From a virus (Duplodnaviria > Heunggongvirae > Uroviricota > Caudoviricetes), in IMG/VR virus record IMGVR_UViG_2671180906_000004: a stretch of 8,870 nt of DNA, one strand, 5' to 3'. Below are positions 2,248 through 5,592 of the stretch, in pieces (position 1 is the stretch's first letter; every line of letters begins with the position of its first letter). The translations under genes were made by a program, and so were the position numbers. The notes under the pieces are model-generated. The model saw nothing but the letters and a program-made list of their open reading frames with translations, was not told where the DNA came from and searched no databases.

Positions 2248-2451
2248 ATGGTTACAGTCGCTGAACTGCAGGCGCTGCGTCAGGCGCGCCTTGATTTATT
2301 AACCGGTAAACGGGTTGTGTCGGTACAGAAAGACGGTCGCAGGATCGAATATACGGCAGCGTCCCTGAATGAGCTTAACCGTGCGATCAACGATGCGGAG
2401 TCGGTTCTGGGTACGACCCGACGCCGCCGACCGCTGGGAGTGAGGTTATGA
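2248..2451 (+). CDS. W: Head-tail joining / head completion protein (gpW-like)
   Basis: 67-aa ORF with the motif LTGKRVVSVQKDGRRIEYTAASL matching lambda gpW ([22 protein letters not shown] as recalled). GGAGGAG at 2238-2244; the ATG directly follows the TGA stop of gene A (TGAATG). Confidence 0.9.
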   Translation: MVTVAELQALRQARLDLLTGKRVVSVQKDGRRIEYTAASLNELNRAINDAESVLGTTRRRRPLGVRL

Positions 2452-4041
2452 AACGAACGCCTGTCCTGATTGATGTGAACGGCGTTCCGCTTCGTGAGAG
2501 TCTCAGCTACAACGGAGGCGGCGCAGGATTTGGCGGGCAAATGGCAGAGTGGTTACCACCGGCGCAGAGTGCCGATGCGGCCCTGTTGCCTGCATTGCGT
2601 CTGGGGAATGCCCGGGCAGATGATCTGGTGCGCAATAACGGTATCGCGGCTAATGCGGTGGCCCTGCATAAGGATCATATCGTCGGGCACATGTTTCTTA
2701 TCAGCTACCGTCTGAACTGGCGTTGGCTGGGGATGCGGGAGACCACGGCAAAAAGTTTTGTCGGGGAGGTGGAAGCAGCCTGGTCGGAATACGCAGAAGG
2801 AATGTTTGGCGAGATCGACGTGGAAGGGAAACGCACGTTTACGGAATTTATCCGTGAAGGGGTGGGCGTGCATGCCTTTAACGGCGAAATCTTTGTGCAG
2901 CCGGTCTGGGATACGGAAACCACGCAGTTATTCCGTACGCGTTTTAAAGCCGTGAGTCCGAAACGGGTGGACACGCCAGGACACGGTATGGGGAACCACT
3001 TTCTGCGGGCCGGGGTTGAGGTCGATCGGTATGGGCGGGCGATTGCGTACCATATCTGTGAGGATGATTTTCCGTTCTCTGGTGCCGGACGCTGGGAGCG
3101 GATCCCGCGTGAGCTTCCCACCGGGCGTCCGGCCATGCTGCATATTTTTGAGCCGGTGGAGGACGGGCAGACCCGTGGGGCTAATCAGTTTTACAGCGTA
3201 ATGGAGCGGATGAAGATGCTGGACTCCCTGCAGGCCACGCAGCTTCAGTCGGCCATTGTGAAGGCGATGTATGCAGCCACAATCGAAAGTGAACTTGATA
3301 CCGAAAAGGCATTTGAATATATCGCGGGGGCACCGCAAGGTCAGCAGGATAATCCGCTTATTAATATTCTGGAGAAGTTCACCCGCTGGTATGACACGAA
3401 TAACGTGACGCTGGGCGGTGTTAAAATTCCGCACCTTTTTTCCTGGCGATGCGCTGAACCTGCAGACAGCGCAGGATTCAGACAATGGATTTTCGGCGCT
3501 TGAACAGGCGCTGCTGCGGTATATTGCAGCCGGTCTTGGCGTTTCCTACGAACAGTTGTCCCGTGATTACTCGAAGGTCAGTTACTCAAGTGCCCGCGCC
3601 TCCGCCAATGAGTCGTGGCGCTATTTTATGGGGCGGCGAAAATTTATTGCGGCCCGGCTGGCCACGCAGATGTTTTCCTGCTGGCTGGAAGAGGCGCTTC
3701 TTCGGGGGATTATTCGTCCGCCACGGGCGCGTTTTGATTTTTACCAGGCGCGTTCAGCCTGGTCACGGGCAGAGTGGATTAGCTCCGGAAGAATGGCCAT
3801 TGACGGGCTCAAGGAGGTCCAGGAATCGGTGATGCGCATTGAGGCCGGACTGAGCACGTATGAGAAAGAACTGGCACTGATGGGCGAAGATTATCAGGAC
3901 ATTTTCCGCCAGCAGGTCAGGGAATCCGCAGAGCGCGAAAAAGCCGGACTCTCACGTCCGGTGTGGATAGCCCAGGCGTATCAGCAGCAGATAGCGGAGA
4001 GTCGCAGGCCGGAAGAGGAGACAACATCACGTGAGACGTAA
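2448..4041 (+). CDS. B: Portal protein (gpB-like), reading frame interrupted at a T6 run (3436-3441), so either a pseudogene or a sequencing indel
   Basis: Two ORFs (2448-3503 and 3418-4041) are together colinear with lambda gpB (NGGGAGFGGQ, ARADDLVRNNG, FEPVEDGQTRGAN.FYSVME.MKMLD, LQTAQD.DNG, LLRYIAAGLGVSYEQLSR, RMAIDGLKEVQE). Removing one T from caccTTTTTTcctggcgat restores ...IPHLF-PGDALNLQTAQD... in a single frame. The ATG overlaps the W stop (ATGA). Confidence 0.85.
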
Positions 4042-5592
4042 TCTTTCACATATTATCGCTGCGGCATTCAATGAGCCGCTGCTTCTGGAGCCCGCCTATG
4101 CGCGGGTTTTCTTTTGCGCGCTCGGGCGTGAGATGGGCGCAGCAAGCCTTTCGGTACCGCAACAGCAGGTACAGCTTGACGCTCCCGGGATGCTGGCTGA
4201 AACGGACGAGTACATGGCCGGAGGCAAACGACCTGCCCGTGTTTACCGGGTGGTGAACGGTATTGCTGTACTGCCGGTGACCGGCACGCTGGTACACCGG
4301 CTGGGTGGCATGCGGCCATTTTCCGGAATGACTGGCTATGACGGCATTGTCGCCTGTCTTCAGCAGGCAATGGCGGACACTCAGGTACGGGGCGTACTGC
4401 TGGACATTGACAGTTCTGGCGGGCAGGCCACCGGCGCGTTTGACTGCGCTGACATGATTTACCGTCTCCGGCAGCTGAAGCCTGTCTGGGCACTGTGCAA
4501 TGACACGGCCTGTTCAGCCGCCATGTTACTGGCATCGGCCTGCTCCCGACGGCTGGTTACCCAGACATCCCGTATCGGCTCCATTGGGGTGATGATGGGC
4601 CATGTCAGCTATGCCGGTCATCTGGCACAGGCCGGTGTGGATATCACGCTGATTTACGCCGGATCGCACAAGGTGGATGGCAATCAGTTTGAATCCCTGC
4701 CAGCAAAGGTTCGCCAGGACATGCAGCAGCGCATTGATGCGGCGCGCCGGATGTTTGCTGAAAAAGTGGCGATGTATACCGGTTTATCTGTGGATGCGGT
4801 TATGGGAACAGAGGCCGCCGTTTTTGAAGGTCAGTCCGGTATTGAGGCCGAACTGGCGGATGAATTAATCAATGCGTCGGACGCCATCAGCGTGATGGCT
4901 GCGACGCTGAACACACACGATACAGGAGGCACTATGCCGCAATTAACTGCAACGGAGGCTGCCGCGCAGGAGAACCAGCGAGTGATGGGGATCCTGACGT
5001 GTCAGGAAGCGAAAGGACGTGAACAACTGGCCACGATGCTGGCAGGGCAACAGGGTATGAGCGTTGAGCAGGCCCGGGCGATTCTGGCCGTGGCGGCACC
5101 GCAACAATCTGGTGTATCTGCGCAGAGTGAAGCCGATCGCATTATGGCATGTGAAGAGGCGAAAGGACGTGAACAACTGGCGGCAACGCTGGCGGCGATG
5201 CCGGAGATGACGGTGGAAAAAGCCCGTCCGATTCTGGCTGCTTCACCGCAGGCGAATGCCGGACCCTCACTTCGTGATCAGATTATGGCCCTGGATGAGG
5301 CAAAAGGGGCAGAGGCGCAGGCTGAAAAACTGGCGGCCTGTCCGGGGATGACCGTGGAGAATGCCCGGGCTGTACTGGCGGGGGGCCCCGGNNNNNNNNN
5401 NNNNNNNNNNNNNNNNNNNNNNNNNNNNNNNNNNNNNNNNNNNNNNNNNNNNNNNNNNNNNNNNNNNNNNNNNNNNNNNNNNNNNNNNAACATTTCATGG
5501 CGAACCATTCACCGGCAGCGGTACAGGGTGGCGTGCCACAGACGTCAGCAGACGGTGATGCGGACGTGAAAATGCTCATGGCCATGCCATGA
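4031..5592 (+). CDS. C: Prohead protease / scaffold (gpC-like, S49/ClpP-like serine peptidase family), interrupted by an assembly gap
   Basis: GTG start at 4031 gives MRRNLSHIIAAAFNEPLLLEPAYARVFFCAL, matching the lambda gpC N-terminus (AFNEPLMLEPAYARVFFCAL as recalled). Conserved core VNGIAVLPV.GTLV, GMTGY.GI, FDCADMI, KPVWAL.ND..CSA..LLASA.SRRLVTQT, GSIGVMM, ITLIY.GSHKVDGN. After the N run the matching C-terminus (...SADGDADVKMLMAMP*) is in a different frame and stops at 5590-5592. Confidence 0.85.
4934..5592 (+). CDS. nu3: Nu3-like scaffolding protein, nested in-frame within the 3' part of gene C (partial because of the gap)
   Basis: In-frame ATG at 4934 preceded by AGGAGG (4924-4929) with a 4-nt spacer, positioned like the internal Nu3 start of lambda. 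The downstream sequence carries the Nu3-like motif IMGIL.C.EA.GRE....LA..PGMTVE.AR.ILA.APQ. Confidence 0.5.
4979..5391 (+). repeat. In-frame tandem coding repeats (at least 3 units of ~47-53 codons) of the Nu3-like scaffold motif, running into the assembly gap
   Basis: Unit starts at about 4979 (RVMGILTCQEAKGREQLATMLA...GMSVEQARAILAVAAPQ), 5138 (RIMACEEAKGREQLAATLAAMPEMTVEKARPILAASPQ) and 5279 (QIMALDEAKGAEAQAEKLAACPGMTVENARAVLAGGP...). A near-identical 26-nt core, ga(a/g)gcgaaaggacgtgaacaactggc, occurs at 5005-5030 and 5157-5182. Confidence 0.8.
5392..5488. other. Assembly gap (run of 97 N)
   Basis: Uninterrupted N run visible in the sequence; the reading frame of the gpC/Nu3 gene differs on the two sides. 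Confidence 0.99.

What the first reader, a model, noticed from the sequence alone, without database searches (positions are those of the whole stretch)
4979..5391. Nu3-like scaffold motif is present in at least three tandem copies, where lambda has one
Three consecutive in-frame units of ~47-53 codons each repeat the motif I-M-x-x-x-E-A-K-G-R-E-Q-L-A...P-G/E-M-T/S-V-E-x-A-R-x-I-L-A. Most codons are diverged between units, with one 26-nt core kept nearly identical, so this is an established duplication and not a collapsed assembly artefact. The third unit runs into the N gap, so the true copy number is unknown. As I recall lambda Nu3/gpC-C-terminus, it has a single copy. The number of copies could affect scaffold stoichiometry or the protease-scaffold tether.
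Basis: partly seen in the sequence, partly recalled or inferred. Interest (0 to 1): 0.6.

Follow-up and report, generated by a model that had tools for sequence, protein, structure and literature searches.

The report
Triplicated scaffold module, phage-21-type head gene
The three repeats are real and are three copies of the small helical module that lambda's scaffold protein Nu3 carries once, but this is the ordinary head protease/scaffold gene of phage 21, found in about a third of complete E. coli genomes, and the sequence gap hides no further copies.

Summary
Observation confirmed. Window 4949-5389 encodes three in-frame, diverged copies (periods 150 and 141 nt) of a ~45-residue motif. Each pair aligns 12-16 SD above shuffled controls, and each copy matches lambda's single Nu3 unit.

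The gene (4031-5592) is an S49 prohead protease with a nested scaffold gene that starts at an AGGAGG-N4-ATG (4934). It is ~91% identical in DNA to genes 5/6 of the classic lambdoid phage 21, which has the same three units (501/200 aa).

In closed relatives the 97-N gap corresponds to 41 nt of unique sequence, so the copy number is exactly three. Most of the 1,870 (of 5,426) complete E. coli genomes with a match appear to carry the same arrangement; Salmonella Gifsy-1 carries it too. Units are orthologous by position, so the triplication is old.

Copy number does vary. Lambda and 107 of 122 family representatives have one unit. E. coli alleles with 2, 2.5, 3 and 4 units exist, some joined exactly at the 23-nt core shared by units 1 and 2.

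AlphaFold2 predicts each unit as an independent three-helix bundle (pLDDT 97) joined by disordered linkers. No Pfam or NCBIfam model and no PDB structure covers it.

What the extra copies do is inferred, not shown. Ordinary, already known; low interest.

The parts
4031..5592 (+). Gene C / phage 21 gene 5 homologue: S49 prohead protease fused in frame to the scaffold region. The reading frame appears shifted across the N run only because 97 N stand in for 41 nt.
   Evidence: PF01343 Peptidase_S49, E 2.6e-33, residues 147-292. PHROG 53 head maturation protease, E 1.4e-194. ~91% DNA identity to phage 21 from terminase to gene 5. The closed relative encodes 501 aa.
4924..4936 (+). Internal ribosome-binding site AGGAGG (4924-4929) and in-frame ATG (4934-4936), the start of the nested scaffold gene (phage 21 gene 6 / Nu3-like, 200 aa in closed relatives).
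   Evidence: Sequence read. The same position is annotated as the RBS and start of 'scaffolding protein' CPT_21_06 in phage 21. Lambda has GGAGGGcgaATG at the aligned position, 5342. Expression was not tested.
4949..5092 (+). Unit 1: three-helix module, the orthologue of lambda's single unit.
   Evidence: AF2 helices 307-323, 331-339 and 345-354 of the 501-aa protein. Single-unit model has pLDDT 97 and pTM 0.81. 64% identical to the lambda unit.
5129..5242 (+). Unit 2: three-helix module.
   Evidence: AF2 helices 367-373, 381-389 and 395-404, pLDDT ~88-91. 79% identical to unit 2 of Gifsy-1.
5270..5389 (+). Unit 3: three-helix module, the most diverged (GAEAQAE replaces the family's GRExLA). 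It ends just before the N run.
   Evidence: AF2 helices 414-419, 428-436 and 442-453. Clusters with the third units of Gifsy-1 and P0121.
5009..5031 (+). 23-nt core of unit 1, identical to 5159-5181 in unit 2 (GCGAAAGGACGTGAACAACTGGC, encoding AKGREQLA).
   Evidence: Two-unit alleles P0085 and P0118 are unit1/unit2 hybrids joined within this core.
5159..5181 (+). 23-nt core of unit 2, identical to 5009-5031.
5392..5488 (.). Scaffolding gap of 97 N. Closed relatives have 41 nt of unique sequence here, encoding ...SGRAEPVSASTTAMFE.
5489..5592 (+). Single-copy C-terminal tail of the protease/scaffold (..HFMANHSPAAVQGGVPQTSADGDADVKMLMAMP, stop TGA at 5590-5592).
   Evidence: It contains the tail motif F/L-x3-M-x4-P-x-V, which is seen once after the last unit in distant family members.

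Best explanation
The window is the head-gene module of a phage-21-type lambdoid prophage of E. coli. Gene 5 (4031-5592) encodes an S49 prohead protease. Its C-terminal 200 residues are also made separately as the scaffold protein (gene 6, the Nu3 analogue) from an internal in-frame start at 4934.

That shared region is built like beads on a string. It has a short leader, then three ~45-residue three-helix modules separated by 10-15-residue Ala/Pro/Gln/Ser-rich linkers predicted to be disordered, then a single ~47-residue tail.

The module is the most conserved part of Nu3-type scaffolds. Lambda has one. The 21/Gifsy-1 lineage acquired three by ancient tandem duplication, and each position has since been kept under purifying selection.

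Inferred, not shown: each module is a protein-binding unit used for scaffold self-association or for contacts with coat or portal. On this reading three copies make the scaffold, and the protease carrying the same C-terminus, multivalent, while the single tail motif supplies a second, non-duplicated contact.

Copy number keeps changing by unequal recombination between units, sometimes within the 23-nt core shared by units 1 and 2. This yields 2-, 2.5-, 3- and 4-unit alleles in E. coli.
For: Identity and architecture: S49 domain; gene order and ~91% DNA identity to phage 21; phage 21 annotation of nested genes 5 (501 aa) and 6 (200 aa) with an RBS at the same internal ATG; identical three-unit protein in phage 21 and in closed E. 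coli genomes.

Homology to lambda Nu3.

Age and selection: units cluster by position across E. coli, Gifsy-1 and metagenomic relatives. There are 27 synonymous against 10 non-synonymous codon differences from phage 21.

Fold: the single unit has pLDDT 97 and pTM 0.81 with three helices. In the full-length model the units score 83-92; linkers 298-306, 357-364 and 455-463 fall below 50, and the unit 2/3 linker (~405-413) sits in a 10-residue block averaging 70. The same fold occurs in S49 peptidases of unrelated phages, at TM 0.90.

Copy-number variation and its mechanism.

Literature: Nu3 self-interacts and interacts with E and C in two-hybrid tests (PMC3224144). Lambda gpNu3 is described as intrinsically disordered (title of Medina et al. 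2011, seen in a reference list). This fits a single 45-residue folded module in a 131-residue chain.

Against: Lambda functions with one unit. Alleles with 2 or 2.5 units are abundant in E. coli (the 482-aa form P0030 occurs on at least 1000 contigs), so three copies are not strictly required.

Unit 3 of the E. coli lineage has lost the family's near-invariant Arg (GAE instead of GRE).

The conserved single-copy tail could be the real coat-binding element, with the modules acting only as spacers.
Confidence: 0.9

Rival explanations
1. The extra units are functionally neutral padding. Only one module (unit 1, the lambda orthologue) plus the tail does the work, and copy number drifts by unequal recombination without consequence.
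For: Lambda and 107 of 122 family representatives have one unit. E. coli alleles with 2, 2.5 and 4 units exist, and the 2.5-unit form is very abundant. Unit 3 has lost a near-invariant residue.
Against: Units 2 and 3 have been retained as position-specific orthologues between the E. coli and Salmonella lineages (66% identical proteins). They evolve mainly by synonymous change. They keep confident folds. Many of the variant alleles may sit in defective prophages, which was not checked.
Confidence: 0.3
2. The repeat is an assembly artefact, or a collapsed array with more copies hidden in the N gap.
For: An N run abuts unit 3, and the sequence just before it is of poor quality. Related proteins are often partial at contig ends.
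Against: Closed chromosomes and the finished phage 21 genome show exactly three units, followed by 41 nt of unique sequence where the gap lies. The units are only 56-69% identical in DNA over the 108-nt core, too diverged to collapse.
Confidence: 0.03
3. The repetition reflects a DNA- or RNA-level element, for example repeated regulator-binding sites such as the CII-type TTGYN6TTGY matches annotated in the phage 21 record, rather than protein modules.
For: The phage 21 record annotates two pattern matches on the minus strand in this region. Units 1 and 2 share an exact 23-nt run with all synonymous sites identical.
Against: Conservation is at the amino-acid level with third-position divergence. 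The motif is conserved as protein in distant phages with unrelated DNA. I worked out by hand from the sequence that the unit 1 copy of the core does not match TTGYN6TTGY. The annotations are pattern matches only.
Confidence: 0.03

Closest known systems
Escherichia phage 21 genes 5 and 6 (capsid protease/scaffolding protein and nested scaffolding protein; GenBank OL657228, CPT_21_05/06)
   Same: Same gene order and ~91% DNA identity. Same 501-aa/200-aa nested architecture, the same internal RBS and ATG, and the same three units and tail.
   Different: Only allelic differences: 10 non-synonymous codons in the repeat region. The window copy is a draft with an N gap and a frameshifted portal gene.
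Lambda gpC protease / gpNu3 scaffold (NC_001416, 4418-5737)
   Same: Homologous S49 protease with an in-frame nested scaffold, 57% protein identity. Unit 1 is orthologous to lambda's unit, and the tail is homologous.
   Different: Lambda has one unit and a 36-residue longer polar leader before it. The RefSeq Nu3 start (5132) is an Ile codon in the 21-type gene; the conserved start signal is at lambda 5342.
Salmonella prophage Gifsy-1 STM2605 (lambda gpC homologue, 498 aa)
   Same: Three units in the same order, each closest to the unit in the same position here. Same tail motif.
   Different: 66% identity. Its unit 3 keeps the GRE consensus that the E. coli unit 3 has lost.
P22 gp8 scaffolding protein, C-terminal helix-turn-helix coat-binding domain
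   Same: A functional analogy only: a small helical element near the C-terminus of a scaffold protein. This comparison rests on my own knowledge of P22.
   Different: No detectable sequence relationship (hhalign probability 0.8%). Two helices rather than three, single copy, and no fused protease.
Tandem three-helix-bundle binding modules such as staphylococcal protein A domains or GA modules
   Different: Scores are at the level of generic three-helix bundles, with 9-16% identity. There is no evidence of common ancestry or shared ligands.

Membership tests
Lambda gpC/gpNu3-type (phage 21 gp5/gp6-type) nested prohead protease-scaffold gene | N-terminal S49 (SppA/ClpP-like) peptidase domain | tested here: met
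   PF01343, E 2.6e-33, 115.6 bits against a cutoff of 24.9. TIGR00706 SppA_dom, E 1.6e-29.
Lambda gpC/gpNu3-type (phage 21 gp5/gp6-type) nested prohead protease-scaffold gene | In-frame internal translation start giving a scaffold protein that shares the protease's C-terminus | tested here: met
   AGGAGG-N4-ATG at 4924-4936 in frame, at the position annotated as the gene 6 RBS and start in phage 21 and aligned with GGAGGG-N3-ATG in lambda. Met at sequence level only; translation was not tested.
Lambda gpC/gpNu3-type (phage 21 gp5/gp6-type) nested prohead protease-scaffold gene | Position between the portal gene and the decoration and major capsid genes | tested here: met
   ORF map, annotation of closed relatives and collinear blastn.
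Lambda gpC/gpNu3-type (phage 21 gp5/gp6-type) nested prohead protease-scaffold gene | C-terminal region homologous to Nu3 (unit plus tail) | tested here: met
   Units against lambda Nu3 give z = 22, 16 and 14. PHROG 8399 head scaffolding protein matches in 3 stretches.
Lambda gpC/gpNu3-type (phage 21 gp5/gp6-type) nested prohead protease-scaffold gene | Protease activity and scaffold function in prohead assembly | not testable with these tools
   Needs genetics or biochemistry.
P22-type scaffolding protein coat-binding helix-turn-helix | Sequence or profile similarity to the P22 gp8 C-terminal domain | tested here: not met
   hhalign of the unit profile A4 against gp8 gives probability 0.8%.
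Helix-hairpin-helix motif (Pfam HHH / HHH_5) | Match to the HhH profile above the curated threshold | tested here: not met
   Only 5 of 81 diverse units give weak HHH_5 hits (best E 0.02) and one gives HHH at E 0.0022. The window units give none.
Protein-A/GA-like three-helix-bundle binding modules | Fold similarity beyond a generic three-helix bundle | tested here: inconclusive

The most novel reading that the evidence does not exclude
The ~45-residue three-helix module is an uncurated and structurally unsolved domain: no Pfam or NCBIfam model and no PDB entry covers it. It may be the working core of Nu3-type scaffolds. Its copy number (1 in lambda, 3 in phage 21 and Gifsy-1, 2-4 in E. coli alleles) may tune how many coat, portal or scaffold partners each scaffold or protease molecule engages. 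If so, the natural allelic series would be a ready-made test of scaffold valency in capsid assembly.
Probability: 0.25. Interest if true: 0.45.

Novelty: already known. Interest (0 to 1): 0.2.

Why it matters
It matters little as a discovery. The sequence is the long-known phage 21 head protease/scaffold gene, which is extremely common in E. coli prophages.

Three by-products are modestly useful.

1. The conserved core of lambda-type scaffolds can be defined as a discrete three-helix module that no domain database describes.
2. Lambdoid phages offer a natural series of 1-4 modules, which could be used to ask how scaffold valency affects procapsid assembly and protease incorporation.
3. Annotators should expect in-frame length variants and contig breaks in this gene.

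Tried and rejected
- **Tandem Repeats Finder** on 4800-5391 found nothing, because the copies are too diverged.
- **blastp self-comparison** returned only the trivial hit. I replaced it with Smith-Waterman plus shuffles.
- **Pfam and NCBIfam** have no model for the unit. The weak HhH and T2SSK hits were rejected as sub-threshold.
- **PDB sequence-profile search** found only designed repeat proteins by chance.
- **P22 gp8 comparison** was negative.
- **Literature:** six full-text searches found no description of the triplication. Medina et al. 2010 and 2011 are not held. Smith & Feiss 1993, the phage 21 head-gene paper I know from memory, could not be consulted. I therefore cannot say whether the repeat was noted in print.
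- **CII-site idea for the 23-nt core** was rejected. It rests on pattern matches only, and unit 1's copy does not fit the pattern.
- **The 657-aa '6-unit' protein (P0001)** is a larger duplication that includes the end of the protease domain. It occurs on a single contig, and I did not count it as a bona fide allele.

Full report
**What is in the sequence**

The segments are:

- ENQRVMGILTCQEAKGREQLATMLAGQQGMSVEQARAILAVAAPQ
- EADRIMACEEAKGREQLAATLAAMPEMTVEKARPILAASPQA
- LRDQIMALDEAKGAEAQAEKLAACPGMTVENARAVLA...

Pairwise local alignment scores are 101, 82 and 103. Shuffled controls give about 24 +/- 5, so z = 12.5-15.8, and none of 2000 shuffles reaches the observed score. At the DNA level the copies sit 150 and 141 nt apart and are 66-76% identical where they align. 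Over the 36-codon core, nucleotide identity is 57-69%. Units 1 and 2 share an exact 23-nt run (5009-5031 = 5159-5181); unit 3 does not. Tandem Repeats Finder reports nothing, consistent with old, diverged copies.

**The gap**

The N run is 5392-5488, 97 bases. The closest closed genome is E. coli VL7S7, 98.4% identical. It has 41 nt of unique sequence there, encoding ...LAAASGRAEPVSASTTAMFEHF..., and a 501-aa protein with exactly three units. I sampled 60 records evenly down the ranking of 1,875 matching E. coli records. Of these, 58 span 938-945 nt for the 1001-nt query, which is the same structure. One has a 57-nt deletion and one is partial. So nothing is hidden in the gap. The apparent frame change across it arises because 97 N replace 41 nt. 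The last ~10 nt before the gap differ from that closed relative and look like poor contig-end sequence.

**What the gene is**

- Residues 147-292 match Pfam Peptidase_S49 (E 2.6e-33). The whole protein matches PHROG 53, head maturation protease.
- The window is collinear with, and ~91% identical to, Escherichia phage 21 from the large terminase gene through gene 5. It is 88% identical through the decoration and capsid genes.
- In the phage 21 record, gene 5 (501 aa, 'capsid protease/scaffolding protein') contains nested gene 6 ('scaffolding protein', 200 aa). Gene 6's annotated RBS and ATG correspond exactly to AGGAGG (4924-4929) and ATG (4934-4936) in the window.
- Phage 21's protein has the same three units.
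- Lambda gpC is 57% identical and has one unit.

**How common it is**

- 1,870 of 5,426 complete E. coli genomes have a match covering the region at 90-99% identity, and in the even sample nearly all best matches are the three-unit form. Among them are Nissle, O104:H4, O157:H7 and ST131 strains.
- In the phage collection, 20 of 190 matching records cover at least 80% of the three-unit query. These include phage 21, several induced E. coli phages and Salmonella Gifsy-1. Lambda, 434, HK629, phi80, mEp237 and many non-enteric phages match through a single unit.
- An exhaustive search of 1.84 billion representative proteins found 122 relatives. A unit HMM counts one unit in 107, two in 9 and three in 4.

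One copy is therefore the family norm. Three is the norm of the phage 21/Gifsy-1 lineage.

**Age and dynamics**

Units cluster by position. Unit 1 groups with other first units and with lambda's unit, unit 2 with second units, and unit 3 with third units, across E. coli, Gifsy-1 and metagenomic relatives. The triplication therefore predates the split of these lineages. Against phage 21, 33 of 42 nucleotide differences are at third codon positions (27 synonymous and 10 non-synonymous codons), which indicates purifying selection on this frame.

The array is still recombining. E. coli alleles found are:

| Length (aa) | Units | Structure |
|---|---|---|
| 451/452 | 2 | Unit1/unit2 hybrids joined within the shared AKGREQLA core, a unit1/unit2 fusion joined near the end of the third helix (P0108), or clean loss of unit 2 |
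| 472 and 482 | 2.5 | Half a unit deleted; the 482-aa form occurs on at least 1000 contigs |
| 501 | 3 | The form in this window |
| 551 | 4 | A unit3/unit2 hybrid inserted |

A second E. coli prophage lineage carries four units, with near-identical neighbours. In short-read assemblies it appears only as 234-530-bp contigs.

**Structure**

AlphaFold2 on the 501-aa protein, with a 39-sequence alignment, gives confident units (pLDDT 83-92). Each has three helices (307-323/331-339/345-354; 367-373/381-389/395-404; 414-419/428-436/442-453). Linkers 298-306, 357-364 and 455-463 have low confidence, as does the tail. A single unit modelled with 81 diverse units gives pLDDT 97 and pTM 0.81, with helices at 2-18, 26-33 and 40-49.

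Near-invariant positions are R12, I16, E21, A22, G24, R25, A29, A33, A43 and L47 of that 54-residue segment. This is the motif ExxR-I...EAxGR...A...A.........A...L.

**How it probably works**

*Shown.* The scaffold region is a string of independently folding three-helix modules on flexible linkers, followed by a single tail. The tail motif (F/L-x3-M-x4-P-x-V) is also conserved in distant relatives. The protease carries the same C-terminus.

*From the literature.* Nu3 interacts with itself, C and E in two-hybrid assays, and is needed for portal incorporation (PMC3224144). Lambda gpNu3 is described as intrinsically disordered (title of Medina et al. 2011, seen in a reference list). This fits one folded 45-residue module in 131 residues.

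*Inferred.* The module is a protein-binding element for scaffold self-association and/or coat or portal contact. Three copies would then make the phage 21-type scaffold, and the co-assembling protease, multivalent. I put about 0.4 on this functional reading. The main rival, at about 0.3, is that the extra units are tolerated padding, given that lambda works with one and that 2- and 2.5-unit alleles are abundant. Assembly artefact and DNA-level function are effectively excluded.

**Verdict**

The gap conceals no extra copies. Interest is low (0.2). What remains of interest is that the module is an undescribed domain with natural copy-number variation.

I could not check whether the 1993 phage 21 head-gene paper already noted the triplication. 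Neither it nor the Catalano-lab gpC/gpNu3 papers are in the searchable library.

Noticed in passing
window 3431-3436 (portal gene 2448-4041): There is a one-base insertion in a T run relative to phage 21 gene 4. It splits the portal gene into ORFs 2448-3503 and 3418-4041. It is either a homopolymer sequencing error or an inactivating frameshift in a decaying prophage.
   Followed up: partly
window 5382-5391: The last ~10 nt before the N run (GGGGGCCCCGG) disagree with the closest closed relative, E. coli VL7S7 (GCAGCCTCAGG). This is probably low-quality contig-end sequence. The 97-N run stands for 41 nt, so the frame shift across it is artificial.
   Followed up: yes
L002 (lambda) 5132 vs 5342; window 4721-4936: The RefSeq start of lambda nu3 (5132, MDATRQ...) aligns with an Ile codon in the 21-type gene. 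The start signal conserved between lambda (GGAGGGcgaATG at 5342), phage 21 gene 6 and the window (4934) is further downstream. This would give a 131-aa lambda Nu3 rather than 201 aa.
   Followed up: partly
L007 3026-4630 (E. coli CP091026.1, 2986943-2995278, reversed): A different E. coli prophage S49 protease/scaffold gene carries four units, with near-identical neighbours, indicating recent expansion. In this closed genome it is broken by frameshifts. In short-read assemblies the array shows up only as 234-530-bp contigs annotated 'S49 family peptidase, partial'.
   Followed up: partly
P0084 (721 aa) and P0087/P0088 (577 aa), E. coli: In these proteins the protease/scaffold reading frame continues, right after unit 3, into unrelated sequence that looks like tail-fibre protein. 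They look like prophage rearrangement or deletion junctions located at the same place as the window's gap.
   Followed up: no
sequences; window 5489-5560: A single-copy motif F/L-x3-M-x4-P-x-V/I follows the last unit in distant family members (lambda ALDRLMQGAPAPLAAG, phage 21 type MFEHFMANHSPAAVQGG, others NHFAAAMDATGNPGVG). It is never duplicated along with the units, and its role is unknown.
   Followed up: no
L003 2506-2519 and 2740-2753 (phage 21 5314-5327, 5548-5561); window ~5173-5186: The phage 21 record annotates two minus-strand 'CII binding site' pattern matches (TTGYN6TTGY) inside the scaffold gene. One overlaps the conserved core of unit 2. These are pattern matches only, and the unit 1 copy does not fit.
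   Followed up: partly
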